DNA of 64,000 bases from a virus. Shown here piece by piece: positions 1 through 45,235 of the stretch. The notes beneath the pieces are model-generated. The model searched no databases, had not been told where the DNA came from, and worked only from the letters and a program-made list of their open reading frames with translations. Location of the stretch: positions 45,320 to 109,319 of IMG/VR virus record IMGVR_UViG_3300028837_000518, one strand, 5' to 3'. The translations under genes and the position numbers were made by a program. Every line of letters starts with the position of its first letter. The stretch's first letter is position 1.

Positions 1-3
1 TAC

Positions 4-104
4 GGGTTGGGTCGAAGTATGTCGGTTATCATACATAGTAATAGCATGGGTAAGAGTACGGCTCTACCATGCCCAAACTCGACATACATTCCCTTATCCA
101 ATCC
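4..104 (+). ncRNA. Y RNA-like element 1 (Ro60-binding hairpin)
   Basis: GGGTTGG(4-10)/CCAATCC(98-104) terminal stem, GTCGA with bulged C opposite TTAT, second helix GTATGTCG(17-24)/CGACATAC(80-87), GGTTATC motif, internal hairpin 44-72; upstream of Ro60. Confidence 0.8.
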
Positions 105-121
105 ATAATACTTAAATTGTT

Positions 122-180
122 GGCTAGGTCGAAGTATGCTGGTTATCCTCTATGATCCCGGCTACAATCCTTATCTAGCC
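122..180 (+). ncRNA. Y RNA-like element 2 (minimal)
   Basis: GGCTAG-GTCGA...GGTTATC...CTTAT-CTAGCC followed by TTT; same architecture as the other four copies and as Y RNA termini. Confidence 0.82.
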
Positions 181-183
181 TTT

Positions 184-256
184 AGGTAAATAGCTCAGTT
201 GGTAGAGCACTTCTTTTACAAAGAAGAGATCGCAGGTTCGAGTCCTGCTTTGCCTA
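184..256 (+). tRNA. tRNA-Val(TAC)
   Basis: Full cloverleaf: AGGTAAA/TTTGCCT acceptor, GCTC/GAGC D stem, CTTCT-TTTACAA-AGAAG anticodon arm, GCAGG-TTCGAGT-CCTGC T arm; CCA not encoded. Confidence 0.93.
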
Positions 257-267
257 CTAAAACTTAA

Positions 268-374
268 TAGATTAGGTCGAAGAGTATCGGTTATCAAGGC
301 AAGCCGAGAGGTTGGTCTGGTGAGCCAGACTTAACATCGGTTATGAAAACGATCTCACAAACTTATCTAATCTA
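268..374 (+). ncRNA. Y RNA-like element 3
   Basis: TAGATTAG(268-275)/CTAATCTA(367-374) stem, GTCGA/CTTAT, GGTTATC motif, long internal hairpin 302-342. Confidence 0.8.
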
Positions 375-377
375 CAT

Positions 378-449
378 GGGGGCGTAGCTTAACGGGAAAG
401 CACCTCTTTTGCAAGGAGGGTACTGGAGGTTCAATTCCTCCCGTCTCCA
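378..449 (+). tRNA. tRNA-Ala(TGC)
   Basis: Cloverleaf with GGGGGCG/CGTCTCC acceptor containing the G3:U70 Ala determinant; anticodon TGC at 410-412; CCA not encoded. Confidence 0.93.
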
Positions 450-452
450 CCT

Positions 453-515
453 CTTGGGTCGAATGCATTGGGTTATTCAAGGTGAAAACTTCCCAACGCA
501 GTTAACTTATCCAAG
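453..515 (+). ncRNA. Y RNA-like element 4
   Basis: CTTGG/CCAAG stem, GTCGA/CTTAT, TGCATTGGG/CCCAACGCA helix, GGTTATT motif. Confidence 0.8.
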
Positions 516-524
516 TAATAATAT

Positions 525-597
525 GCGGGAGTAGCTCAGTTGGTAGAGCATCGCCTTGCCAGGGCGAGGGTCACGAGTTCGAGTCTCGTTTTCCGCT
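525..597 (+). tRNA. tRNA-Gly(GCC)
   Basis: Cloverleaf GCGGGAG/TTTCCGC, anticodon GCC at 558-560, U73 discriminator; CCA not encoded. Confidence 0.93.
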
Positions 598-606
598 TAT
601 GTTGTT

Positions 607-685
607 AAGCCGGGTCGAGTTCAGTGGGTTATTGTGTATAATAATCCTTGTGTGTGTTTTCCCACTGGAAAAGTTAACCTGGCTT
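607..685 (+). ncRNA. Y RNA-like element 5
   Basis: AAGCCGGG/CCTGGCTT stem, GTCGA, TTCAGTGGG/CCCACTGGA helix, GGTTATT motif, ends in T run. Confidence 0.78.
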
Positions 686-732
686 TTATCTCTCTGGGAC
701 GCTTTTCCATCCACCACTACTAGGAGGTTATA

Positions 733-2433
733 ATGAGCAATTACGGCCAACACTTCTCTACACAGCAAACCGTCCAGACCGAGCCCATCCCAGGAAAAGA
801 TATGGGAGAAAACTTGGCTGGTGGTTATGCATTCAAGATTGATAAGTGGGCAAGACTTCAGCGTTTTCTTATCCTCGGCGCGGAAGGCACCTACTATGCT
901 AGCGGTCAAGCAATGACCATTGATAATGCTAACGTAGTAGTGGATTGTATTCGGGAAGATGGCCGGCGAGTGGTAGATAGTATTGTTACTACCTCACAAG
1001 AGGGTCGTGCGCCCAAGAATGACTCAGCACTATTTGCCCTTCTCATGTGTATGACACCAGACTTTGCCAATCTTGCAACTCGCCAAGCAGCATTTGCTGC
1101 TCTTCCTGCAGTTGCACGAATTGGTACGCACCTATTTAAGTTCTGCTCTGAGGTTGACTCAATGCGGGGTTGGGGACGTGGGCTACGACGCGCACTCTCT
1201 AGGTGGTACAACTCTAAAGCTCCTGCTCGCCTTGCATACCAAGTTGTAAAGTATCAGCAGCGGCATGGCTGGACCCACAGAGATGTATTGCGCAAGGCTC
1301 ACCCAGTCCCCTTATCGGATGCGCACAAGATTATCTATCACTACATAACTCAAAAGGAGCTACCATGTAGTCTCGCGCAGACAGAGGGTGGTGTGGATAT
1401 GTTGTATGCCTTCGAGTCTATCAAACGGGCCGAGAGTGTTAATCAGGCCACACAACTAATCCGTGAATTCAGACTTCCTCGCGAGGCAGTGCCAACTCGA
1501 TTCTTGAATGATAGTGCTATTTGGCAAGCACTACTAGAATCTATGCCTATGACCGCCATGATTCGCAACCTTGCCAAGATGACCAGTATTGGTCTACTTG
1601 CTCCCTTGTCGTTCGCAGCTAACTTTGTAGTAAAGCAATTAGGTAATGCAGATTATCTGAGACGCGCACGCGTTCACCCATTCTCTGTATTTCTTGCGTT
1701 GCGAACCTACGCGATGGGTTGCGGTATTCGTGGTAAGCTTCGGTGGGAACCAGTACCTGCCATAGTAGATGCGCTTGACAAGGCTTTTTACTTGTGTTTT
1801 GATAATGTTGAGCCAACTGGAAAGCGTATAGTAATCGGCGTTGATGTCTCGGGTAGCATGAGTGCGCCGATACTCGCTGATCCTAATACACAATTCATGG
1901 TACCGGGGCCACCATCAGTCCTGGAGGCCGCTGCTGCAATTGCGTTAGTTACTAACGCTGTGGAACCCAATAGTACTATAGTAGCATTCTCGCATGATAT
2001 AGTACCAATCACTATTACACCGCGCCAGCGGATTGATAACCTTTGCAACGAGCTACGCGGCCTACCAATGGGCAATACAGACTGTGCTCTACCCATGCTT
2101 TGGGCGCTAGGTTATGCGCCCGATGTACGTGGTGGTATTCACAGATGGTTCCGTCACCCCTGCGATTATAAGAAAGTTAGGGACAACGTTATCGAGGCTG
2201 ATGTTTTCATAGTAATTACCGACAACGAGACTTGGTTTGGCAAGATACACCCTGTGCAGGCACTAAACAAGTATCGAAAGCAAACAGGTATTGACGCCAA
2301 GCTAGTTGTTCTCGCTATGACCTCTACCGGATTTTCTATAGCTGACCCCAATGATTCTGGAATGCTTGATATTTGTGGTATGGATAGCGCTGTTCCCACA
2401 CTTATCTCTGACTTTATAAGTGGCAGAGTTTAG
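733..2433 (+). CDS. rsr: Ro60/TROVE domain RNA-binding protein with C-terminal vWA (MIDAS) domain
   Basis: N-terminal 'NLAGGYAF...LQRFLILGAEGTYY', 'GWGRGLRRA', 'KYQQRHGWTHRDVLRKAHP', 'MPMTAMIRNLAKMT', vWA 'DVSGSM' and 'ITDNETW'; AGGAGG RBS at 722-727. Confidence 0.96.
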   Translation: MSNYGQHFSTQQTVQTEPIPGKDMGENLAGGYAFKIDKWARLQRFLILGAEGTYYASGQAMTIDNANVVVDCIREDGRRVVDSIVTTSQEGRAPKNDSALFALLMCMTPDFANLATRQAAFAALPAVARIGTHLFKFCSEVDSMRGWGRGLRRALSRWYNSKAPARLAYQVVKYQQRHGWTHRDVLRKAHPVPLSDAHKIIYHYITQKELPCSLAQTEGGVDMLYAFESIKRAESVNQATQLIREFRLPREAVPTRFLNDSAIWQALLESMPMTAMIRNLAKMTSIGLLAPLSFAANFVVKQLGNADYLRRARVHPFSVFLALRTYAMGCGIRGKLRWEPVPAIVDALDKAFYLCFDNVEPTGKRIVIGVDVSGSMSAPILADPNTQFMVPGPPSVLEAAAAIALVTNAVEPNSTIVAFSHDIVPITITPRQRIDNLCNELRGLPMGNTDCALPMLWALGYAPDVRGGIHRWFRHPCDYKKVRDNVIEADVFIVITDNETWFGKIHPVQALNKYRKQTGIDAKLVVLAMTSTGFSIADPNDSGMLDICGMDSAVPTLISDFISGRV

Positions 2434-2434
2434 C

Positions 2435-2890
2435 ATGAGCGAGGCGGAAAGACTTGAGGCTCTAATAGATCAGTTAGCAGAGCTAAGAGATATGGTGCAC
2501 TTTCTTCAAAGTGCCGAAGACGATGCGAAAGCAACGCTAGAGCAAGTACAAGAATACCAAATCTATAACAATATAGTAGATGGGCGCAAAAAGCTAAAGC
2601 GACAGGTTAAAGAACACGAAGTAGTAATACGTAACTTAGTTGTTAAAGTCTTTAGTGAAACAGGCATAAGGTATCCGGGGACAGGTCGTGCATATATTCA
2701 AATGGTTAAGACTTGTGTCTACGACGAAACCAATATTCATGCCTGGTGTGTCGAACGCGCCCCCGGCTTTCTCAATCTTAATACTAGAGCAATTGAGAAA
2801 GCAGCAAAGTCGGGTGCAAATGGTATGCCTATAGAAGTTACTGTAGTTCCGCGCGGTTATATCAAGGGCAAGCTAGATGTCCCGGCCTAA
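2435..2890 (+). CDS. Hypothetical coiled-coil protein (weak Gp157/Gam-like appearance)
   Basis: ATG just after Ro60 stop; helical N-terminal half, beta-rich C-terminal half. Confidence 0.5.
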   Translation: MSEAERLEALIDQLAELRDMVHFLQSAEDDAKATLEQVQEYQIYNNIVDGRKKLKRQVKEHEVVIRNLVVKVFSETGIRYPGTGRAYIQMVKTCVYDETNIHAWCVERAPGFLNLNTRAIEKAAKSGANGMPIEVTVVPRGYIKGKLDVPA

Positions 2891-3380
2891 TACACCAAGC
2901 TTTTGGACAACAACACATACTACCAGTGAAAAGGACGAGTGGGAAACACCGCGAAGTCTCGTTAGCTACTTAGCACAGTACTTTTCCTGGGACCTTGATG
3001 TGTGTGCGAGTCGAGCAAATGTCTGCGAGACCTTTCTTACTAAGGCCGATAACGCCCTAAGTTGTAGTTGGACGGGACTGTGCTGGAATAACCCACCATA
3101 CGGAAAAGAGATGCGTCGGTGGATTGCTAAAGCAAAACACGCTGCGCAGTCCCCCGGCACTACAGTAGTCTGTCTAGTGCCGGCTCGCACCGATACTAAG
3201 TGGTGGCATCACAACGTTCCTGAAGCAAGCTTGGTAGTTTTCTTAAAGGGTCGACTTAGCTTTGAACTAGATAACATTGGGCAACCCGCACCATTCCCAT
3301 CAGCTATAATAGTGTTTGGTCCACTAAGTGAACTACAGAAAAATGTTCTAAAACACATGGGCTGGTCACCACTAGGATAG
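2877..3380 (+). CDS. Phage DNA N6-adenine methyltransferase (Dam-like)
   Basis: 'EWETP', 'LDVCAS', 'NNPPYG', 'LVPARTDTKWW', 'APFPSA' motifs. Confidence 0.9.
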   Translation: MSRPNTPSFWTTTHTTSEKDEWETPRSLVSYLAQYFSWDLDVCASRANVCETFLTKADNALSCSWTGLCWNNPPYGKEMRRWIAKAKHAAQSPGTTVVCLVPARTDTKWWHHNVPEASLVVFLKGRLSFELDNIGQPAPFPSAIIVFGPLSELQKNVLKHMGWSPLG

Positions 3381-5516: not shown

Positions 5517-6143
5517 ATGCATCATTGGGGACAAGAAGGTGTTGAGTTACCAGTACCGGCGACTAAGCTGGTTAGTGCCGAGGCCAGTACACCAAAACTG
5601 ACTGTAGAAACAGTAGATAATCACGTGTACTTTTATGCTACTGTTAACAGTGATCGCTGTTTAGCCTTAGTTCGTACCATTCGCGAACTTGATGGAAAAC
5701 TTAGGAACGAACATGCCTCACGTGCATTGCCGGCAGAGCACCCATTAACACCTATTTGGTTGCATGTGAATAGCGATGGGGGCAGTGTGTTTGACGCGCT
5801 TGGTGTTGCCGATCAACTGAAAAGTATTAAGACACCAATATTCTCTGTAGTAGAGGGGTGTGCAGCAAGCTCTGCGACTCTCCTCAGTGTCCCTTGTACG
5901 AAGCGGTTTATTACTTCATCTTCTTTCATGCTTATTCATCAAGTTTCCAGCATTATGTGGGGAACATACGAGCAGTTTAAAGATCAGATGAAGGTACTTG
6001 ACATGATCATGCGTCAACTTGTCAACTTTTACTCGACTCACACAAAGCTGGAGCCATTAAAGCTCGAGGAGCTTCTCAAGCGTGATTCGTGGTTTGCCGC
6101 ACAGCAATGTGTGGATATAGGGTTAGTGGACGCTATTCTATAG
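5517..6143 (+). CDS. clpP: ClpP-like protease proteolytic subunit
   Basis: 'NSDGGSV', 'GCAASSAT' (Ser), 'MLIHQ' (His), 'RDSWF...GLVDAI' (Asp region). Confidence 0.88.
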   Translation: MHHWGQEGVELPVPATKLVSAEASTPKLTVETVDNHVYFYATVNSDRCLALVRTIRELDGKLRNEHASRALPAEHPLTPIWLHVNSDGGSVFDALGVADQLKSIKTPIFSVVEGCAASSATLLSVPCTKRFITSSSFMLIHQVSSIMWGTYEQFKDQMKVLDMIMRQLVNFYSTHTKLEPLKLEELLKRDSWFAAQQCVDIGLVDAIL

Positions 6144-11538: not shown

Positions 11539-12720
11539 CGAGATGGGGAAATGAGCATTAGCGGGGCGCTGGCTGATGCGCGGCGATATGTGATGATAGC
11601 GGCTGATACACTACAATGCTATGTTGATAATTACCGTTCAGCTACTGATCATGGTGTGCCCTGGCGCTACGTTAGAGAAGTGGCAACGGACCTGTATATC
11701 ATTACGGAGACCCTTGATGCAAACCCTTAAACGCATTGCCTGGTTCATCGTTCTCGCTTTGTGGATATTAGTACTCATGCTAATCACAAGTCAATTATTC
11801 CTAGCGACGAAATTATAATGAGTACTACTAAGCGCAGTCGACTACTTGAGATTGCTGGAATGCCCACGATTGTAGGGGCACAACACACTACATATAGGAT
11901 AGGCGAGAAGTCTTCCGTTTACTTCCTAGAGCATAATGGTGCGCAAGTATACGAAAGTGTCTGTCGTGCTTATCATATCCTAGAGCAGGTGAAGGATTGG
12001 CTCAAGCGCGGCGTGCCCCTAGAGACTATCCTAGAACTGGTAGAGTTCATGGAATCAGGATGACAAGAGGGGTAAAAGTAATGCTAGCACAATTTATTCG
12101 GTGGATAGGCTGTACGTCTGGTCTCTTTCACTTACGGTGTCTCTGGAAAGAAGAAGGTATCTATTGTGTAGACTGCGAGTTTTTTAAGAGCAAGGCAGCG
12201 CATCTAGCAGATTTGCACGCAGGCGGTGGGTGGTAAAGGCCGCAAAATGACAATCACTGAGAAATCAGTACTTCTAGGATTCGCCATAACTTATCGTTTT
12301 GAGAATCAAGGATTCAACGAACACGGTAAAAAAGTCTATACACACTCTGCTATCCGTCTTGCGCCACGGATAATTCAGGCAAATGCGCTACCGAAAGAGT
12401 TGGTCGTTTCTATTGCGCGTTTTCTACAAGAGCATATCGAGCAAATAGACGAGTAAGAGGAGGTATAAAGTGTCTATTAGCTATCTCGTACTCTTAATGA
12501 TTGGAGCTATTAATAATGGTGTTTAAGCAAGGGAGGTGATGTGGAGTGCCAGACGGTTATCACTATGTTTATAGTCCTAGCGGTCGAGAATTAGTGCTAG
12601 TTGCGGTCGAGGGGTCGATAACGAGCGTATAGACAGAAACTTGACCCTACGGAATGACGCGCTGACCGCAACTTAGACATTCAATGACAGGCTATTCGAC
12701 TCAGCCACAAGGTAAAAGAA

Positions 12721-13518: not shown

Positions 13519-13589
13519 GCCGGAGTAGCTTAATGGAAAGCGGTGCTCTTGTAAAGCACAAGTAGTGGGTTCGAATCCCATCCTCGGCT
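13519..13589 (+). tRNA. tRNA-Thr(TGT)
   Basis: GCCGGAG/CCTCGGC acceptor, GTGCT-CTTGTAA-AGCAC anticodon arm, GTGGG-TTCGAAT-CCCAT T arm. Confidence 0.88.
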
Positions 13590-16397: not shown

Positions 16398-16471
16398 ACG
16401 GCGGTAGCTTAACAGGCTAGAGCAACGATCTCCAAAATCGTAAGGTGTAGGTTCAACCCCTACCCGCCGTG
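16398..16471 (+). tRNA. tRNA-Trp(CCA)
   Basis: ACGGCGG/CCGCCGT acceptor, ACGAT-CTCCAAA-ATCGT anticodon arm, G73. Confidence 0.88.
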
Positions 16472-19232: not shown

Positions 19233-19901
19233 ATGAAATACCATAAGATAAAGACAGTGTATAAGCGAAACCCAGATGACAAGTACCGCACTCTTATCGA
19301 GGGCGTATATAGTACGGAGACGCTAGAGTATTTGGCCGACAACAGATGGGAATGGACAGAGAAAGTTGATGGAACAAACATTCGAGTAGTGTGGGATGGA
19401 AAACTGGCGCGGTTTGCGGGACGAACAGATAAGGCGCAATTATACGCACCTCTCGTTAGTCGTTTACAGGATTTGTTTACAGCAGAGAAGTTAGGTATAT
19501 TCGGTGCTGGCGATATACCTGCTGTCTTTCATCTCTTTGGCGAGGGATATGGGGCTAGAATACAGAATGGTGGCGGTAATTACATTCCAGATGGCGTGGA
19601 CTTTATACTCTTCGACGTGCTAGTTACACCTAGTCCAGGTGTACCGGGCACTGTCCTCTGGTTAAGTCGCTTTAACATTGAGAATATAGCAGAGAAGCTG
19701 GGCATTCAAGCTGTTCCTATAGTGGGGCGCGGCACACTATCAGAGGCTATAAATCTTGCACGAACAGGGTTTGAATCACTTATTGCAGCCACATCAACCA
19801 TAGCTGAAGGATTAGTAATGCGTCCAGCCGTAGAGTTAATTGATCGTCGCGGAGACAGGGTTATGTGCAAGATTAAGCACAAGGACTTTCCTGTGGAATG
19901 A
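19233..19901 (+). CDS. ATP-dependent RNA ligase (Rnl2-like nucleotidyltransferase domain)
   Basis: Motif I 'EKVDGTN', 'FGEGYG', 'FILFDV', 'EGLVMRP', 'KIKHKDF'. Confidence 0.85.
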   Translation: MKYHKIKTVYKRNPDDKYRTLIEGVYSTETLEYLADNRWEWTEKVDGTNIRVVWDGKLARFAGRTDKAQLYAPLVSRLQDLFTAEKLGIFGAGDIPAVFHLFGEGYGARIQNGGGNYIPDGVDFILFDVLVTPSPGVPGTVLWLSRFNIENIAEKLGIQAVPIVGRGTLSEAINLARTGFESLIAATSTIAEGLVMRPAVELIDRRGDRVMCKIKHKDFPVE

Positions 19902-20671
19902 GCACAAGTCATAGAAACATTTTCTGCGAGGATTGCCTAGAGACTATGGAGCGACTAAGTGATGGTGAAGTTAATTGCATTGTTACTAGCCCTCCGTACT
20001 GGAACACTAAGCCCTATTCACATTGGCCAACTTATGCAGAGTACATGCAAGACGTAAGTTTATGGCTAAGTGGTTTGTTTCGTGTCCTTGAGCCTGGCCG
20101 TCACTGCTTCTGGGTTATCCCCGACAAACTACCCTATCCGCCTAAGGTGAGTGGGGTGAAGGAGCGACTATATCTTTCCATCTATGCTGACACTGAACGT
20201 ACTGCGGCTGAGGCTGGGTTCGTTTGCAAGTATCCTATTGTGTGGAAGAAGCCGCACGGAACACAAAAAATGTTCGGGTCATATCCTTTCCCACCTACCG
20301 TAATCCATACTCCTATGACTGAGCGAATCTGTATATGGAGAAAACCAGGAAAGTATATTAGAAGGTCAGGGGAAGTCAAGGAATCAAGCCGTTTTACCAA
20401 GGAACAATGGGTAGCTTGGGCACAGGATGTATGGGAAATAAGGCCGACAAGTCGAAAAGATCATCCCGCTCCCTTTCCCGAGGAACTAGTGGTAAGGATT
20501 CTCACCCTATGGTCTTTTAGAGGAGATTTAATTTATGATCCCTTTATTGGTTCTGGTACTACTGCTGTAGTGGCAACTAGAATGGGTCGCAAGTTTATCG
20601 GCAGTGATATTCACCAAGAGTATATTGACGCGGCGAAGAATAGGTTGACTTTTACACCTAACATGGTATAG
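19898..20671 (+). CDS. DNA methyltransferase, N4-cytosine/N6 type (beta class)
   Basis: 'VTSPPY' then 'HPAPFP...DPFIGSGTT'. Confidence 0.92.
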   Translation: MSTSHRNIFCEDCLETMERLSDGEVNCIVTSPPYWNTKPYSHWPTYAEYMQDVSLWLSGLFRVLEPGRHCFWVIPDKLPYPPKVSGVKERLYLSIYADTERTAAEAGFVCKYPIVWKKPHGTQKMFGSYPFPPTVIHTPMTERICIWRKPGKYIRRSGEVKESSRFTKEQWVAWAQDVWEIRPTSRKDHPAPFPEELVVRILTLWSFRGDLIYDPFIGSGTTAVVATRMGRKFIGSDIHQEYIDAAKNRLTFTPNMV

Positions 20672-22209: not shown

Positions 22210-22679
22210 CCACTCTTCTTTTAGCCGCAGTCATCGCACTTGGTTTGGGGGCTATCGTTCTTGGAATTCGCCTATTGCAAATATCAGGGAGGAATAGAAC
22301 ATGACTGACGCATTCATGGACGCTCCGAATTGGGCACAGTGGATTATAGTGGCTTTTGGGCTAATCGGCACTCTAGTTTCAGCTATCCCTGCGGATGGGT
22401 GGGAGTGGTGCATACTGCGGAATGCGACGGCTTTTGCATTGTTTGCTTTTGGTGCCTTACTTTTTTACAACATTTACTTGAGCTAGGTGGAGGGTATGAT
22501 GGAAGATATAGGTGTGGCGTATTTAGCAGCGGTGATGTTTGCGGGGGTGGTTGCTAGTATAGCAATAATGGTCGATGAAAGACGTGGCACTTTCTCTAGG
22601 TTTTTTGCTATCCTAACAACAATTGCTTGTTACGCGGGAATGTTCCGTTATCTACGCCAGTTCTTCAAGGGAGGGTGAG

Positions 22680-24239
22680 ATGAAGGTAGGGATAACCAAT
22701 TTTGTTAAACTTGGCGCGCTAGTACGCGATGGTGTTACAGACTGGTTAGAGTACGGGAATGTGCGTGCCGTGTACCACGAGGGACTAGTTCTGTTTAACT
22801 ATACAGCAAAAGCACAGTTCCAGAATCGCTGGAACTGGTTTGAGCGTGTGAGTCGCGGGCTAATTTTAGACGCAACCACTGGCAAGGTTATAGCTCGCCC
22901 CTTCGACAAGTTCTGGAACTGGGGTGCATTCGGGCGGACGACTGACGCGGACTTGATTGAGGTAACAGAGAAGCTAGATGGGTGTTTTACTGGCTATACA
23001 AAACTAAATCTATGGGGTGGTGGTACAATTCCTATTAGGGAAGTAGTAAAAAAGCAACTAGCAGTAACACTTATAGGGATAAATAAGAGTGGGCAAGTTG
23101 TTCCTGCAAAAGTTGTTGACTGGTTCAACAACGGTACAAAAACTGAGTGGCTTTTACTGACGGTAGATTGTGATGTCTCTAAGCTATCAGGAACTCGGAC
23201 AGGGAACCATATTGTTGTTACACCTAATCACCATATACTCCTAAACGGACGATACCAACCAGTAGTTAATGCAAGACCAGGTGATTATGTTTTAAACTAT
23301 GGATGGTGGCCAGATGATCGTCAGCAAGGCAAACTTATACGGCGAGTAAAAGAGGTGAAAGTTCTTGACATACAGCATCTTAAACATGATGGTTCACACT
23401 CACACTTTTCCGCTGGGCGTGTTGGTTTCGATGTAGAGACAACGACGGGAAATTATTTTGCTAAGGGTGTCTTAGTACATAATTCGCTTGGCATTATGTA
23501 CTGGCATGAAGGCAAGTACAAGATTGCCACACGCGGATCATTCACAAGCGAACAGGCGTTGTGGGCGACAGAGTATTTGAATACGAACTATGATCTTAGT
23601 ACTTGTGATTTTCCTGGCACATTGCTTTTTGAGATAATCTACCCAGAAAATCGTGTCGTGGTGGATTATGGTAGGCAGCATGAAGACTTGGTGTTAATCG
23701 GAATACGGCTGCGTGAATCAGATTATGATGCCCTTTATCCTCATTTGGAATATTTTGCTCAGAAATACGGATTTACTTTGCCTCAGACCTATGAATTCTC
23801 TGACATAGCCAGCATTCTCGCCGCCCGCGAAGAGATTGTAGGCACTGAGCAAGAGGGCTGGGCACTACGGTTTGCTGATGGGCAACGATTTAAAGTGAAG
23901 GGAACGTCCTACCTAACACTACATCGTTTGGTTAGTCGTGCAACATATCCTGCTGTAGTTAAGGCTATGATGCGAGGCGAGTTGGACGAAACATTGCAAG
24001 ATTTGCCCAGCGAGCTATCGGGCGAGATCGTAGAATGGCGGGACATAACTAATGAGAGAGTGGCGCACATAAAACGGTGCGTTGAGCTGAACTTTGCCAT
24101 TGCGCCACAGGGAAGTCGGAAAGAGTTTGCTATATGGGCTAATACGGTTTTCCCAAGTCTCGCTCCATATCTATTCAGGCGGCTAGATGGGTGCGACTAT
24201 ACACAGTTGATCTATAAGAATATTCTAAAGGAGTGCTAG
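22680..24239 (+). CDS. T4 Rnl1-like RNA ligase containing a mini-intein
   Basis: 'LFNYT', 'RGLI...ARPFDKFWN', motif I 'EKLDG|S', 'ATRGSF.SEQA', 'LFEIIYPENRVVVDY', 'EGW...RFKVKG..Y'. Confidence 0.9.
   Translation: MKVGITNFVKLGALVRDGVTDWLEYGNVRAVYHEGLVLFNYTAKAQFQNRWNWFERVSRGLILDATTGKVIARPFDKFWNWGAFGRTTDADLIEVTEKLDGCFTGYTKLNLWGGGTIPIREVVKKQLAVTLIGINKSGQVVPAKVVDWFNNGTKTEWLLLTVDCDVSKLSGTRTGNHIVVTPNHHILLNGRYQPVVNARPGDYVLNYGWWPDDRQQGKLIRRVKEVKVLDIQHLKHDGSHSHFSAGRVGFDVETTTGNYFAKGVLVHNSLGIMYWHEGKYKIATRGSFTSEQALWATEYLNTNYDLSTCDFPGTLLFEIIYPENRVVVDYGRQHEDLVLIGIRLRESDYDALYPHLEYFAQKYGFTLPQTYEFSDIASILAAREEIVGTEQEGWALRFADGQRFKVKGTSYLTLHRLVSRATYPAVVKAMMRGELDETLQDLPSELSGEIVEWRDITNERVAHIKRCVELNFAIAPQGSRKEFAIWANTVFPSLAPYLFRRLDGCDYTQLIYKNILKEC
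22983..23483 (+). mobile_element. Mini-intein (167 aa, no homing endonuclease) in RNA ligase motif I
   Basis: 'CFTGYT' start, 'VTPNH' block B, 'LVHN|S' end. Confidence 0.9.
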
Positions 24240-25392: not shown

Positions 25393-26073
25393 ATGCTAAC
25401 ACTAGGACCTTACACCTTGGGACCTAATGACACACCCGAGAACGGGGTGTATGTAGGTGATGCACGGGAGTTAGCGCGTGCTATTCCTGACGAGTCAGTA
25501 GACCTAATTTTCACAGACCCACCATGGGATAACAATAGCGTAGTTTTATATGATGACTTAGCACAAATGGCTATACGTATTCTCAAGCCTGGTAGTCTCG
25601 TCTTTGCATATACAGGAAATGACTGGCTGCCTCGCATAATGCAGGCCATGAGTAATGCTGGCCTATCTTGGCTTCGTATGTTTGCAGGCATACAACTTGC
25701 TAGCAATAATAGATATTTTCGCAAGCGTTTGTTTGTAAAGTGGCGACCAATTGTAGTCTATGTTAAAGGTGAATATAATCCCAAGAGTTGGCTCCCTGAT
25801 GCTCTGCCAACTAACCGTGATAAACGGTATCATCCCCGGGGCCAAGGTGCAAAGCCTGTCCTTCGATGGATTCAGAATGCAAGTCCACCAAACGCTATCG
25901 TATTAGACCCGTTTGTAGGTGGTGGAACATTTATCGCCGTGTGTAAAATGCTTAGTCGGCGTTTTCTAGCTTTTGATATTGACTCAAGCGCGGCAGACAT
26001 AGCTCGTCAGCACGTGCGCGATACTCAACCACCACTATTTGTACTGAAGCCAAAGCAGGGGGACTTACTGTGA
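25393..26073 (+). CDS. DNA methyltransferase (beta class, DPPW)
   Basis: 'LIFTDPPW', 'LDPFVGGGT'. Confidence 0.85.
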   Translation: MLTLGPYTLGPNDTPENGVYVGDARELARAIPDESVDLIFTDPPWDNNSVVLYDDLAQMAIRILKPGSLVFAYTGNDWLPRIMQAMSNAGLSWLRMFAGIQLASNNRYFRKRLFVKWRPIVVYVKGEYNPKSWLPDALPTNRDKRYHPRGQGAKPVLRWIQNASPPNAIVLDPFVGGGTFIAVCKMLSRRFLAFDIDSSAADIARQHVRDTQPPLFVLKPKQGDLL

Positions 26074-26750
26074 GTATTGGACCGTATCAACTCGGCCCAA
26101 ACAATACAGCTGAGAATGGAATATATACGGGAGATGCACGCGATCTTGCACGTGCTATCCCTGATGAGTCGGTGGACCTCATCTTTACCGACCCCGTGTA
26201 TCAAAACATTGATGATTACCGGTGGTTGACAGAGATGGGGGCGAGAGTGTTAGTGGATGGTGGAAGTTGTATTGCGCAAATTGGACCAGAGTATATGCCA
26301 GAGGTTCTGGCTGCAATGACACCCGCACTAGATTGGGTTTGGGAGTTAATGGAATGGTATGGCTCTGGCGCGGGCAAAATCTGGTACAAACGTATCTTTT
26401 TAGCTCATAAGCCGTGGCTTTGGTTTAGTAAGGGGCCACGAGCGGGCAAGTGGGTTAGAACTGGTGGGCAATCAGTAAGAGACAAAAACCACCATCGGTG
26501 GGGAGACAGTGCGGGATTTATGCTCCCCTATATTCGTGCCCTATGTCCCCAAGATGGGGTTACCCTCGACCCATTCACCGGAGGCGGTACTGTTCCCGCC
26601 GCCTGTAAAATGCTGAATCGCTGTTACTTGGCTTTTGAGATTGAACCAGATACGGCAGATGATGCACGTCAGCGTATACGTGAAACTCAACCACCGCTGC
26701 CACTAGAGATACCGACACAAGGAAAGCCACTAAATGAGTGTCTACGTTGA
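26070..26750 (+). CDS. DNA methyltransferase (beta class, variant DPVY)
   Basis: 'LIFTDPVY', 'LDPFTGGGT'; N- and C-termini near-identical to 25393..26073. Confidence 0.82.
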   Translation: MSIGPYQLGPNNTAENGIYTGDARDLARAIPDESVDLIFTDPVYQNIDDYRWLTEMGARVLVDGGSCIAQIGPEYMPEVLAAMTPALDWVWELMEWYGSGAGKIWYKRIFLAHKPWLWFSKGPRAGKWVRTGGQSVRDKNHHRWGDSAGFMLPYIRALCPQDGVTLDPFTGGGTVPAACKMLNRCYLAFEIEPDTADDARQRIRETQPPLPLEIPTQGKPLNECLR

Positions 26751-27102: not shown

Positions 27103-27570
27103 GTGCTTGCAACGCGAGCCGAAGAACCCGTGAGACTAGAATTACAGCCTATCTCATACCCAGAAGCTTGCGCATTCATCAAAGAGCATCATAGCCATCA
27201 CCTGCCACCGCAGGGATGGAAGTTCGGAATCGCTGTCAATGATGGTGAGAAAATCGTCGGCGTTGTAACGGTGGGGCGTCCAGTGGCGCGACACCATGAT
27301 GATGGGTGGACGCTTGAAGTCACTCGTTGTTGTACGGATGGAACTAAAAACGCAGCAAGTAAACTCTACGCGGCGGCGAGTCGTGCGTGTCATGCACTAG
27401 GCTATAAGCGTCTCATTACTTATACACTTCTAGAGGAGCCGGGAACATGTCTTCGTGTGGCAGGATGGAAGGTCATTAGTATCTCGCATGGTGGCACGTG
27501 GAACCGAAAGGCCAGACCTAGGATAGATAAGCACCAAACTGGTCAGAAACGGCTTTGGGAGGGGCCATGA
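27103..27570 (+). CDS. XF1762-family (GNAT-like) protein
   Basis: 'HHSHH.PP.G.KF', 'GRPVAR..DDG.TLEVTR..TDGT.NA.S.LY', 'ITYTL..E.G..L..AGW'. Confidence 0.8.
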   Translation: MLATRAEEPVRLELQPISYPEACAFIKEHHSHHLPPQGWKFGIAVNDGEKIVGVVTVGRPVARHHDDGWTLEVTRCCTDGTKNAASKLYAAASRACHALGYKRLITYTLLEEPGTCLRVAGWKVISISHGGTWNRKARPRIDKHQTGQKRLWEGP

Positions 27571-44287: not shown

Positions 44288-45235
44288 ATGAAAAATGATC
44301 GCTCGCTTATGTTTAGAATGCCTGAAAATCTTTTTCAGGTTCTCGAAAATTATGCCAGCGAATTACACGTAAGTAAATCAGAGTTCATGCGAGGTATGCT
44401 ACGAACTTTAGCATCCAATAAGGCTATAGAACCAGAAGACTTTGCCAAAGAAATTAAAGCTGATATTGTGTCTACCAAAGAACCTCCCAACATAGAGGGT
44501 CATATCGTCTCAACACGGGTACCACTCGGGCACCATGATATAATTTCTAGTTATGCTGATACAAAAAATACCTCAGTTTCAGCCATTGTACGCGCTTTAA
44601 TCAGGGCTTTTGCTGAGGGTAAAACCACAATTTCTAGTAACTTGCCAGTCAGACAACATGTTCGGAAACAAACGAATCCAGATAGCGAAGGAGTTTATAG
44701 AAGTCAAAGTAAGTGGGCTAATGCAGTAAAATCACGCGATAACTATTGCTGTGTTGAATGTGGAGATCAAGGGCCAGTTGTAGCTCATCATATCATTTTT
44801 ATTGAGAGTGGTGGGGAACACACATTAGAAAATGGCATGACTCTCTGTCATCCCTGTCATAGCAAGAAACATACAGTTGACGACTACATAGGCATAGACG
44901 TTCCCAATGCCTGGAAAACCAGGGAGAGAAATTATAAAGGTAACCATGGTGGCGAGACAGAAGCATTCTGGAAGGAGCAATTGGCCCGTCTAAACACTCG
45001 CCGATGTATCAAGTGGACAAGGATAACTAAGAGGTATATTAACACGTTTCTACAAGATATACCTGAACACGTTGTCAAAAGAACAGTCATTACGCTGTGT
45101 CCAGACCCGCGCGCTATTAAACAGAAACCCGTAGAGTCATTCATACCTTATAAGGAAGAGCTTACGCCACCAACTTTGATTTGGTTAGAGGGAGAACAAG
45201 ATGCGAGCACCAAGGAAGAATCTATCAATACATAA
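44288..45235 (+). CDS. Tandem RHH (CopG-like) domains fused to HNH endonuclease
   Basis: 'LMFRMP...VSKSEFMR', 'VSTRVP...SVSAIVRALI', 'RDNYCCVECG...AHHI...GG.H..ENG.TLC..CH..KH'. Confidence 0.8.
   Translation: MKNDRSLMFRMPENLFQVLENYASELHVSKSEFMRGMLRTLASNKAIEPEDFAKEIKADIVSTKEPPNIEGHIVSTRVPLGHHDIISSYADTKNTSVSAIVRALIRAFAEGKTTISSNLPVRQHVRKQTNPDSEGVYRSQSKWANAVKSRDNYCCVECGDQGPVVAHHIIFIESGGEHTLENGMTLCHPCHSKKHTVDDYIGIDVPNAWKTRERNYKGNHGGETEAFWKEQLARLNTRRCIKWTRITKRYINTFLQDIPEHVVKRTVITLCPDPRAIKQKPVESFIPYKEELTPPTLIWLEGEQDASTKEESINT

What the first reader, a model, noticed from the sequence alone, without database searches (positions are those of the whole stretch)
122..690. tRNAs appear to act as processing punctuation that releases the Y RNAs
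Seen: spacers between hairpins and tRNAs are only 3-11 nt (Y2-TTT-tRNAVal, Y3-CAT-tRNAAla, tRNAAla-CCT-Y4; 9-11 nt elsewhere). I see no internal promoter or terminator, and none of the three tRNAs encodes CCA. Established: CCA-less precursors are cut by RNase P (5') and RNase Z (3'). Inference: host tRNA-maturation enzymes would cut one polycistronic transcript into mature tRNAs, individual Y RNAs (Y2 with a UUU tail like animal Y RNAs) and the Ro60 mRNA. This would be a natural analogue of engineered tRNA-gRNA arrays.
Basis: partly seen in the sequence, partly recalled or inferred. Interest (0 to 1): 0.8.

Follow-up and report, generated by a model that had tools for sequence, protein, structure and literature searches.

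The report
Phage Y RNAs interleaved with tRNAs
A 109-kb phage packs six Y-RNA-like hairpins and three real tRNA genes, a few bases apart, in front of its Ro60 gene, so the host's tRNA-trimming enzymes would cut about half of the Y RNA ends, although related phages show that Y RNAs do not need tRNAs to be released.

Summary
Three genuine tRNAs without encoded CCA (Val 184-256, Ala 378-449, Gly 525-597) alternate with Y-RNA-like hairpins, 3-11 nt apart, just upstream of a TROVE+vWA Ro60 gene. Consensus scans find no convincing promoter or terminator inside the array. A near-consensus sigma-70 promoter lies about 950 nt upstream.

- If the array is one transcript, RNase P and a 3' tRNase must cut at six of the twelve Y ends.
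- A sixth hairpin (Y0) lies upstream of the window. Y0, Y1, the 5' end of Y2 and the 3' end of Y5 have no tRNA neighbour.
- Those ends face a 20-nt long-range duplex, a 106-nt hairpin and AU-rich linkers, which suggests RNase III/E-type cuts.
- In 86 Ro60 loci my covariance model found 104 Y modules, all on the Ro60 strand. Only 10 abut a tRNA or tmRNA, and 15 Y-Y pairs abut with no tRNA between.
- Abutment recurs in scattered lineages: Gordonia phages Forza and GMA2, Rhodococcus phage Trina and several IMG/VR contigs.

So the tRNAs are working cargo that also serves as cleavage sites, not dedicated punctuation. No RNA data could be obtained. This scan has noted Ro60-linked RNA arrays in tRNA operons on other DNA (e1-272486). 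I rate it a new variant of known kinds.

The parts
4..104 (+). Y1: Y-RNA-like hairpin (GGGTTGGGTCGAAG...CTTATCCAATCC) with a branched apical domain. No tRNA on either side.
   Evidence: Fold -36.1 kcal/mol, z -4.6. R1 63.8 bits. R2 22.6 bits.
105..121 (+). Y1-Y2 linker: 17 nt, 12% G+C, no tRNA. Must be cut by something other than tRNA enzymes.
   Evidence: It overlaps a weak TCGACA-19-CATAAT candidate promoter at 79-109.
122..180 (+). Y2: minimal Y-RNA-like hairpin, followed by TTT (181-183).
   Evidence: R2 42.9 bits, E 4e-7. Fold.
184..256 (+). tRNA-Val(UAC). U at -1, discriminator A256, then CTA (no CCA).
   Evidence: ARAGORN. Rfam tRNA 75.3 bits.
268..374 (+). Y3: Y-RNA-like hairpin with a long apical domain. 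11-nt AU-rich leader (257-267) and CAT trailer (375-377).
   Evidence: R2 29.7 bits. R1 64.3 bits. Fold z -3.65.
378..449 (+). tRNA-Ala(UGC) with G3-U70. U at -1, discriminator A449, then CCT.
   Evidence: 64.4 bits. Sequence.
453..515 (+). Y4: minimal Y-RNA-like hairpin (GUCGAAUG form of the motif). 9-nt trailer TAATAATAT (516-524).
   Evidence: R2 46.9 bits, E 5e-8.
525..597 (+). tRNA-Gly(GCC). U at -1, discriminator T597, then TAT (no CCA).
   Evidence: 63.6 bits.
607..685 (+). Y5: Y-RNA-like hairpin, 47 nt before the Ro60 start codon. If no further cut occurs it would stay on the 5' end of the Ro60 mRNA.
   Evidence: Rfam Y_RNA 29.9 bits, E 6.6e-4. R2 30.8 bits.
722..727 (+). AGGAGG ribosome-binding site of the Ro60 gene.
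   Evidence: Sequence.
733..2433 (+). Ro60 orthologue, 566 aa.
   Evidence: Pfam TROVE 8.4e-42 and vWA_Ro60 1.9e-57.

Best explanation
The locus is one densely packed non-coding RNA and mRNA operon of a phage Ro60 system.

Transcription (inferred). Host sigma-70 RNA polymerase starts at the near-consensus promoter at G000 44344-44372. It reads through a 227-aa ORF, then Y0, a long hairpin, Y1, Y2, tRNA-Val, Y3, tRNA-Ala, Y4, tRNA-Gly and Y5, and on into Ro60 and the genes behind it.

Folding (predicted). The modules fold independently, like beads on a string, joined by short AU-rich linkers.

Processing (inferred, mixed):
- RNase P cuts at 183|184, 377|378 and 524|525.
- A 3' tRNase (RNase Z/BN, or RNase E plus exonucleases) cuts near 256|257, 449|450 and 597|598, and host CCA-adding enzyme finishes the tRNAs. 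Together these cuts fix six of the twelve Y ends to within 3-11 nt: the 3' ends of Y2, Y3 and Y4 and the 5' ends of Y3, Y4 and Y5.
- The other ends need other nucleases. Candidates are an RNase III-type cut at the 20-nt long-range duplex that ends 2 nt before Y0, a cut in the 106-nt Y0-Y1 hairpin, and RNase E or exonuclease trimming of the 17-nt Y1-Y2 linker back to the stems.

Role of the tRNAs. They are genuine decoders that share the transcription unit and double as cleavage sites. They are not dedicated or required punctuation.
For: - tRNAs, hairpins and spacers are as described.
- There are six R2 matches in the genome, all in this cluster.
- The Y module is a conserved structured RNA tied to Ro60. 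There are 104 matches at E<0.1 in 56 of 86 Ro60 loci, all on the Ro60 strand. Of the pair cells, 93.8% form standard pairs and 287 are compensatory, against 92.6 in shuffles; versions with the partner slid by 1-3 columns fall to 34-52%.
- Only one strong + strand promoter lies upstream: 11 of 12 matches plus TG. No + strand terminator was found in the array or in Ro60.
- The genome uses canonical sigma-70 promoters, including four perfect 12/12 sites.
- The precursor fold keeps Y1, Y2, tRNA-Val, Y3, tRNA-Ala and Y4 as separate domains.
- The linkers are 16% G+C against 44% for the array.
- All three tRNAs have U at -1.
- A 20-nt, 90% complementary duplex links L002 11067-11086 with 11811-11830. 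The Y0-Y1 spacer folds at -31.2 kcal/mol, z -4.2.
- Tight tRNA-Y junctions of 0-13 nt occur in Forza, GMA2, Trina, L027, L081 and L084.
- Precedents: T4 CCA-less dimeric precursors with a 3-nt spacer (PMC11143913), and M. smegmatis YrlA and YrlB processed from one precursor (PMC4201824).
Against: - There is no transcript evidence of any kind.
- The promoter and terminator scans are consensus matches only. A phage-specific promoter, or a weak one such as TCGACA-19-CATAAT at 79-109 with a predicted start near 116, would be missed or under-rated.
- The host is unknown; the best phage matches to the helicase are about 30% identical. Which 3' tRNase acts is therefore unknown.
- tRNA-Ala is followed by CC. 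As I recall, C74 and C75 hinder RNase Z.
- A stem only 3 nt from the RNase P site leaves little single-stranded leader for the RNase P protein, which contacts positions -8 to -3 (PMC11143913).
Confidence: 0.6

Rival explanations
1. Strong form of the first reader's idea. The tRNAs, or tRNA-shaped modules, are kept in the array because they are the punctuation: without them the flanking Y RNAs would not be released or would be unstable.
For: - Strict alternation over the last seven elements here.
- The same alternation in Forza: tmRNA-Y-tRNA-Y-tRNA-Y-tRNA-Y-tRNA, with 1-2-nt and 5-7-nt spacers.
- In L003, tRNA-shaped RNAs that keep the acceptor, D and T arms but lack an anticodon loop alternate with Y hairpins. 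These are the parts that RNase P and RNase Z recognise.
- Abutment is scattered over the Ro60 tree: 8 rows need 7 changes. That fits repeated gain.
Against: - Six of the twelve Y ends here lack a tRNA.
- The sister locus L009 has no tRNA call clear of a Y core in its array.
- 94 of 104 Y modules do not abut a tRNA. 15 Y-Y pairs sit 3-24 nt apart with no tRNA between them.
- Given 6 Y and 3 tRNAs, alternation alone has about a 12% chance (my count: 10 of 84 orders).
- The tRNAs look like normal decoders (G3-U70).
Confidence: 0.15
2. The elements are separate transcription units. Each Y RNA or Y-tRNA pair has its own promoter (weak sigma-70-like or phage-specific), and the tight spacing only reflects genome compaction.
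For: - The AU-rich linkers contain -10-like words.
- One candidate, TCGACA-19-CATAAT at 79-109, would start about 6 nt before Y2.
- In Listeria phage CKA15, three highly transcribed regions upstream of a Ro60-like gene were proposed as possible Y RNAs (PMC12282133).
Against: - Spacers of 3 nt leave no room for promoters in front of tRNA-Val, tRNA-Ala or Y4.
- Weak candidates are no more frequent than in shuffles: 3 against 1.9.
- There are no terminators between the elements.
Confidence: 0.1
3. Some Y-tRNA units stay joined, or are cut slowly, and act as two-part analogues of YrlA: a Ro60-binding helix tethered to a tRNA body. Alternatively, Ro60 bound to the nascent Y stems controls maturation of the neighbouring tRNAs.
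For: [quoted passage not shown] None of the six here matches Rfam YrlA, even at E up to 10, yet three real tRNAs sit 3 nt from Y stems.
- L003 carries tRNA bodies whose anticodon arm is replaced by a Y-like helix, in the positions that true tRNAs occupy here.
Against: - The tRNAs have normal cloverleaves and identity elements, and must be freed to decode.
- Nothing in the sequence blocks RNase P.
- The idea is entirely inferential.
Confidence: 0.1

Closest known systems
Bacterial and phage Ro60 (Rsr) loci with adjacent Y RNAs: YrlA and YrlB (Chen et al. 2014, PMC4201824); Thermus phage phiLo Yrl1 and Yrl2 (PMC12135203)
   Same: - A TROVE+vWA Ro60 gene with several Y-like RNAs directly upstream on the same strand.
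- The conserved GNCGAA(N)G motif in a bulged helix.
- M. smegmatis YrlA and YrlB come from one precursor, and RNase P cuts YrlA.
   Different: - There are six copies here.
- None has the tRNA-like domain that defines YrlA. They look like animal Y RNAs or nematode stem-bulge RNAs.
- Real tRNA genes are interleaved. I found no description of that in the papers I could search.
Phage T4 tRNA gene cluster (PMC11143913; the RNAC and RNAD small RNAs are mentioned in PMC9697503)
   Same: - Phage tRNAs without encoded CCA.
- Dimeric precursors with spacers under 5 nt (Pro-Ser: 3 nt), cut by host RNase P and a 3' nuclease, then CCA addition.
- As I recall, two stable RNAs of unknown function are co-transcribed with the T4 tRNAs.
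   Different: - The T4 partners are mostly other tRNAs.
- The T4 small RNAs have no known protein partner and are not Y RNAs.
- T4 has no Ro60 gene.
tRNA punctuation of mitochondrial polycistronic transcripts and plant t-elements (PMC3790967, PMC1920247)
   Same: tRNA or tRNA-like structures inside a long precursor serve as RNase P and RNase Z sites that define the ends of neighbouring RNAs.
   Different: In mitochondria nearly every junction carries a tRNA and the scheme is essential. Here only half of the Y ends do, and relatives manage without.
tRNA-linked small RNAs in eukaryotes and their viruses (MHV68 tRNA-miRNA, MALAT1-mascRNA, plant tRNA-snoRNA) and engineered tRNA-gRNA arrays
   Same: A non-tRNA small RNA is released by RNase P or RNase Z cleavage of an adjoining tRNA or tRNA-like fold.
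   Different: Those are eukaryotic or synthetic. This would be a bacterial-virus example, with a ribonucleoprotein partner encoded next door.
Felix O1-like phage Bas63 gp130 (PMC11482910, preprint)
   Same: A Ro60-like gene lies directly beside a tRNA array. The authors suggest that some annotated tRNAs may be Y RNAs.
   Different: No Y RNAs were defined there and processing was not discussed. Here the two RNA kinds are told apart and mapped.

Membership tests
Ro60-Y RNA system (Rsr with Y RNAs) | Ro60 orthologue with TROVE and vWA domains | tested here: met
   Pfam TROVE 8.4e-42 and vWA_Ro60 1.9e-57 on ORF 733-2433.
Ro60-Y RNA system (Rsr with Y RNAs) | Small structured RNAs encoded within a few kb of Ro60 on the same strand | tested here: met
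   Six R2 matches within 900 nt upstream and none elsewhere in the genome. 104 of 104 matches in 56 related loci are on the Ro60 strand.
Ro60-Y RNA system (Rsr with Y RNAs) | Stem formed by the 5' and 3' ends, carrying the conserved bulged helix with GNCGAA(N)G (motif as given in PMC4201824) | tested here: met
   GUCGAAG in Y1-Y3 and GUCGAAUG in Y4, with variants GUCGCCG (Y0) and GUCGAGU (Y5). Covariation of both helices: 93.8% paired, 287 compensatory cells, 0 of 500 shuffles as high (the alignment was fitted to the model).
Ro60-Y RNA system (Rsr with Y RNAs) | Rfam Y_RNA (RF00019) gathering score | tested here: not met
   Only Y5 matches, at 29.9 bits against a gathering score of 38.
Ro60-Y RNA system (Rsr with Y RNAs) | Physical binding of the RNAs by the Ro60 protein | not testable with these tools
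   Needs EMSA or RIP.
YrlA (Rfam RF02553) | tRNA-like domain (T, D and acceptor-like arms) enclosed by the Ro60-binding stem | tested here: not met
   No YrlA match in window 1-800 even at E up to 10. Relatives do score in the same kind of search (E up to 1): Forza 52.1, GMA2 43.1, Cashline 42.2 and ET08 37.4 bits, all below the gathering score of 69.
tRNA-punctuated polycistronic precursor | tRNAs abut the neighbouring RNA genes with spacers of a few nucleotides | tested here: met
   Spacers of 3, 11, 3, 3, 9 and 9 nt.
tRNA-punctuated polycistronic precursor | One transcription unit: a promoter upstream and none inside, with no internal terminator | tested here: inconclusive
   Consensus scans only. 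There is one strong promoter 950 nt upstream, and weak internal candidates occur at the chance rate.
tRNA-punctuated polycistronic precursor | tRNAs mark (nearly) every junction | tested here: not met
   The junctions Y0|hairpin|Y1|Y2 and Y5|Ro60 have no tRNA. Most related Y arrays have none.
tRNA-punctuated polycistronic precursor | Cleavage by RNase P and RNase Z at the junctions | not testable with these tools
Functional tRNA genes | Cloverleaf, conserved D and T loops, identity elements | tested here: met
   Rfam 63.6-75.3 bits. ARAGORN anticodons UAC, UGC and GCC. G3-U70 in tRNA-Ala. Cloverleaves are kept in the precursor fold for Val and Ala.

The most novel reading that the evidence does not exclude
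tRNA-shaped modules are selected partners of Y hairpins in phage Ro60 operons. The array would encode two-part units, a Ro60-binding helix next to a tRNA body. These would either be matured by the tRNA machinery as their normal route of biogenesis, or act before cleavage as split YrlA analogues. Either way, Ro60 particle assembly would be coupled to phage tRNA supply or tRNA repair. The phage also encodes Rnl1-like and Rnl2-like RNA ligases. The L003 RNAs, tRNA bodies whose anticodon arm is a Y-like helix, would be the fused form of the same partnership.
Probability: 0.12. Interest if true: 0.75.

Novelty: new variant of a known kind. Interest (0 to 1): 0.5.

Why it matters
How bacterial and phage Y RNAs get their ends is barely studied. 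This locus, and cultured phages with the same layout (Gordonia phages Forza and GMA2, Rhodococcus phage Trina), offer a compact system that can be tested genetically. In it, RNase P and RNase Z cuts at real tRNAs, an RNase III-type duplex and AU-rich linkers can each be tested for their share in making Ro60-bound RNAs.

It also has a practical side. Y-like RNAs inside phage tRNA arrays are unannotated or mis-annotated as tRNAs. In Forza, for example, the annotated 'tRNA-Gln 5540-5607' is part of a YrlA-like RNA.

If the tight tRNA-Y pairing proves to be selected, it would link phage tRNA supply or repair with Ro60 biology. It would also give a natural bacterial counterpart of engineered tRNA-guide arrays.

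Tried and rejected
- **RNA evidence.** No reads could therefore be laid and no ends mapped.
- **Model R1.** Built from the six own copies, it was over-fitted. It found only those copies and nothing convincing in relatives. I replaced it with R2.
- **nhmmer profile.** A profile of the 5' arm alone gave E-values too weak to use.
- **My two-helix descriptor.** It picked wrong closing stems for several known copies, so I dropped it for boundary calls.
- **MAFFT alignment of 23 Y elements.** The lengths were too different and the 3' arms did not align. It was used only for the 5' arm.
- **R2 and long elements.** R2 misses long YrlA-type elements (Forza 5539-5663 and 5744-5873, ET08 2693-2844, L004 696-821). 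The count of 10 abutting modules among 104 is therefore a lower bound for abutment, and for Y number.
- **Maximum-likelihood tree.** It did not finish in time. The FastTree result was used instead.
- **Host inference.** The helicase gave only about 30% identity to phages of varied Gram-negative hosts. The host stays unknown.
- **Reviews.** Sim & Wolin 2018 and Sim et al. 2020 are not held in the library. I cannot exclude that they mention tRNA-linked phage Y RNAs.
- **Rejected reading.** The hairpins are not generic repeats or attenuators. All 104 of 104 matches lie on the Ro60 strand, covariation is strong, and the matches are confined to Ro60 loci.
Full report
**Where the window lies.** The window is G000:C1:45320-109319 of a 109,319-bp virus record with direct terminal repeats. 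I fetched 12 kb upstream as L002, where window position = L002 position minus 12000. The genome is 46.7% G+C.

**The observation.**
- ARAGORN and the Rfam tRNA model agree on three + strand tRNAs: tRNA-Val(UAC) 184-256, tRNA-Ala(UGC) 378-449 and tRNA-Gly(GCC) 525-597. They score 63.6-75.3 bits.
- The bases after the discriminators are CTA, CCT and TAT, so none encodes CCA. All three have U at position -1, and tRNA-Ala has G3-U70.
- Between and before the tRNAs lie stem-bulge-stem hairpins with invariant GGTCG..GGTTA..TTA.C. They are Y1 4-104, Y2 122-180, Y3 268-374, Y4 453-515 and Y5 607-685.
- Y5 matches Rfam Y_RNA at 29.9 bits (E 6.6e-4, below the gathering score). No element matches YrlA, even at E up to 10.
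- The ORF at 733-2433 is a Ro60 orthologue: TROVE 8.4e-42 and vWA_Ro60 1.9e-57.

- A sixth hairpin, Y0 (L002:11833-11897, variant motif GUCGCCG), lies upstream of the window.
- It is followed by a 106-nt spacer that folds into a long hairpin: -31.2 kcal/mol, z -4.2, 0 of 200 shuffles as good.
- Upstream of that is a 227-aa ORF with no Pfam or PHROG match (L002:11118-11801).
- Ahead of the ORF is the only strong + strand promoter in the neighbourhood: TTGACA-17-TACAAT with an extended TG, at L002 11025-11053.
- The genome has four perfect 12/12 sigma-70 promoters elsewhere, so host-type promoters are in use.
- A 20-nt, 90% complementary inverted repeat joins L002 11067-11086, just after the expected start site, to 11811-11830, which ends 2 nt before Y0. 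By my estimate, about 0.003 such matches are expected by chance in 1.9 kb.

**Are the hairpins a real RNA family?**
- I built a covariance model, R2, from 13 short hairpins of this phage, two IMG/VR relatives and Gordonia and Mycobacterium phages.
- In the whole genome it finds six matches, all in this cluster.
- In 86 Ro60 loci (1.0 Mb, both strands) it finds 104 matches at E<0.1 in 56 loci, every one on the Ro60 strand.
- On the resulting alignment 93.8% of pair cells form standard pairs. There are 287 cells with changes on both sides, against 92.6 in shuffles (0 of 500 as high). Slid controls fall to 34-52% paired. The alignment was fitted to the model, which favours the structure.
- These are Y-type partner RNAs of Ro60, of the kind without a tRNA-like domain.

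**One transcript?**
- The standard scan finds no + strand promoter or terminator within the array or within Ro60.
- A relaxed scan gives three weak candidates against 1.9 in shuffles. One, TCGACA-19-CATAAT at 79-109, would start about 6 nt before Y2 and remains a caveat.
- Three junctions have only 3 nt, which leaves no room for a promoter.
- In a minimum-free-energy fold of the 905-nt stretch, Y1, Y2, tRNA-Val, Y3, tRNA-Ala and Y4 keep exactly their stand-alone folds.
- The 55 nt of linkers are 16% G+C, against 44% for the array.
- Co-transcription is therefore the best reading, but it is inferred.

**What tRNA processing can and cannot explain.**
- On one precursor, RNase P cuts at the three tRNA 5' ends and a 3' tRNase cuts at the three 3' ends. 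These cuts necessarily produce six of the twelve Y ends, each within 3-11 nt of a stem.
- The T4 Pro-Ser precursor shows that bacterial enzymes handle such substrates. It has a 3-nt spacer, neither tRNA has CCA, and RNase P cleavage is helped by prior CCA addition (PMC11143913).
- Y0, Y1, the 5' end of Y2 and the 3' end of Y5 have no tRNA neighbour. Next to those ends I find the long-range duplex, the long hairpin and a 17-nt, 12% G+C linker. These point to RNase III-type and RNase E or exonuclease steps (inference).
- The phage's other two tRNAs, Thr 13519-13589 and Trp 16398-16471, also lack CCA and sit within strings of protein genes. tRNA-Trp lies 5 nt before a ribosome-binding site. Putting tRNAs inside transcription units is thus a general habit of this genome.

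**Relatives.**
- Tight tRNA-Y junctions do recur.
- In Gordonia phage Forza the order is tmRNA, Y, tRNA-Arg, YrlA-like, tRNA-Gln, YrlA-like, tRNA-Ile, Y, tRNA-Met. Spacers are 1-2 nt after each tRNA or tmRNA and 5-7 nt before the next tRNA.
- GMA2, Rhodococcus phage Trina (tRNA-Tyr to Y 0 nt; Y to tRNA-Asn 5 nt), L027, L081, L084 and L004 each have one or two such junctions.
- In L003, three Y hairpins alternate with two tRNA-shaped RNAs. These keep the acceptor, D and T arms but carry a 50-nt Y-like helix in place of the anticodon loop.
- Even so, only 10 of 104 R2 matches (6 loci) lie within 13 nt of an ARAGORN tRNA or tmRNA.
- 15 Y-Y pairs in 11 loci are 3-24 nt apart with no tRNA between them.
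- The Ro60 sister of this phage on the tree, L009 (53% identity), has no tRNA call clear of a Y core in its array; its two ARAGORN calls overlap Y cores and look YrlA-like.
- On a FastTree of 86 Ro60 proteins the abutment trait needs 7 changes for 8 rows, the same as shuffled labels at 7.7.
- tRNAs are therefore neither necessary nor ancestral for Y arrays. The association has arisen or been lost many times.

**Verdict.**
- The sequence facts are right.
- The mechanistic core is very likely right as far as it goes: tRNA enzymes would cut this precursor at the tRNA borders and so free the neighbouring Y RNAs.
- The claim that the tRNAs are the punctuation that releases the Y RNAs overstates it.
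- The UUU-tail analogy with animal Y RNAs is superficial.
- The idea of a natural analogue of tRNA-guide arrays is fair, but older natural precedents exist: the T4 tRNA cluster, mitochondria and plant t-elements.

**Literature.**
- I found no paper describing Y RNAs interleaved with tRNAs or matured by tRNA enzymes at such junctions.
- The nearest statements are that M. smegmatis YrlA and YrlB come from one precursor and that YrlA is cut by RNase P (PMC4201824). A preprint also remarks that Bas63's Ro60-like gene sits beside a tRNA array that might hide Y RNAs (PMC11482910).
- Two reviews were not available.
- This scan has noted similar Ro60-linked RNA arrays in tRNA operons on other DNA. I did not test those notes.

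Noticed in passing
L002:11067-11086 and L002:11811-11830 (G000 44386-44405 and 45130-45149; upstream of the window): A 20-nt, 90% complementary long-range inverted repeat brackets the 227-aa first ORF of the unit. It runs from just after the predicted start site to 2 nt before Y0. It looks like an RNase III-type processing stem (12 bp, a 2x2 loop, then 6 bp).
   Followed up: partly
L002:11898-12003 (window -102 to 3): The Y0-Y1 spacer is itself a long, strongly folding hairpin (-31.2 kcal/mol, z -4.2) without the Y motif. It may be a seventh RNA element or a double-strand nuclease site. Its core contains the inverted repeat GATCTTTGA..TCAAAGAT.
   Followed up: partly
window 50-69 versus 200-219: The apical domain of Y1 (GTAAGAGTACGGCTCTACCA) is 80% complementary over 20 nt to the D-arm and anticodon-stem region of tRNA-Val. 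The GCTCTACCA part would also match the TGGTAGAGC stretch shared by tRNA-Gly. Y1 may therefore have an antisense 'cargo' directed at tRNAs.
   Followed up: no
L003:3555-3678 and L003:3770-3895 (IMGVR_UViG_3300037067_019204): Two tRNA-shaped RNAs have intact acceptor, D and T arms (Rfam tRNA 48 bits for the first). Their anticodon loop is replaced by a roughly 50-nt hairpin carrying a Y-like motif in reversed order (..CACTTGAC-loop-GTACGAATG..GGATTATCC). They look like YrlA with the opposite topology, and they alternate with three Y hairpins before Ro60.
   Followed up: partly
L005 (Gordonia phage Forza) 5539-5663; L097 (Rhodococcus phage Trina) 3643-3851 and 69-134: The annotated 'tRNA-Gln' at L005:5540-5607 is part of a YrlA-like RNA, with a Ro60-binding 5' arm at 5539 and a T-arm inside. 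Trina's 'tRNA-OTHER' features next to Ro60 are probably Y or YrlA-like RNAs too. Y RNAs in phage tRNA arrays are being annotated as odd tRNAs.
   Followed up: partly
L008 (Gordonia phage GMA2) 5491-5547: A Pistol self-cleaving ribozyme (Rfam RF02679, 56.8 bits, gathering score 34.5) starts 4 nt after tRNA-Trp inside the tRNA/Y array. This is another built-in cutting device in such an array.
   Followed up: no
window 19233-19901 and 22623-24239: There are two RNA ligase genes. One is Rnl2-like (PF09414). The other is T4 Rnl1-like (PF09511, phrog_562) with a weak, sub-threshold Hint (intein-like) match at residues 116-259 (20.9 bits, cut-off 29.7). Together with Ro60, the Y RNAs and the tRNAs this suggests an RNA repair and surveillance tool kit.
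   Followed up: partly
window 13519-13589 and 16398-16471: tRNA-Thr(UGU) and tRNA-Trp(CCA) also lack encoded CCA. tRNA-Trp ends 5 nt before an AGGAGG ribosome-binding site, so tRNA processing may also cut mRNAs in this phage.
   Followed up: partly
L002:11030-11046 and L002:11961-11977: A near-palindromic word, TAGAATCTA / AGATTCTA, occurs both between the -35 and -10 of the strong promoter and in the Y0-Y1 hairpin (17 nt, 82% complementary). It may be an operator, or it may be chance.
   Followed up: no
window 2877-3380, 19898-20671, 25393-26750, 27103-27570: The phage has many DNA-modification genes: Dam-like, three N6_N4 methylase-like ORFs and a weak Mom-like hit.
   Followed up: no
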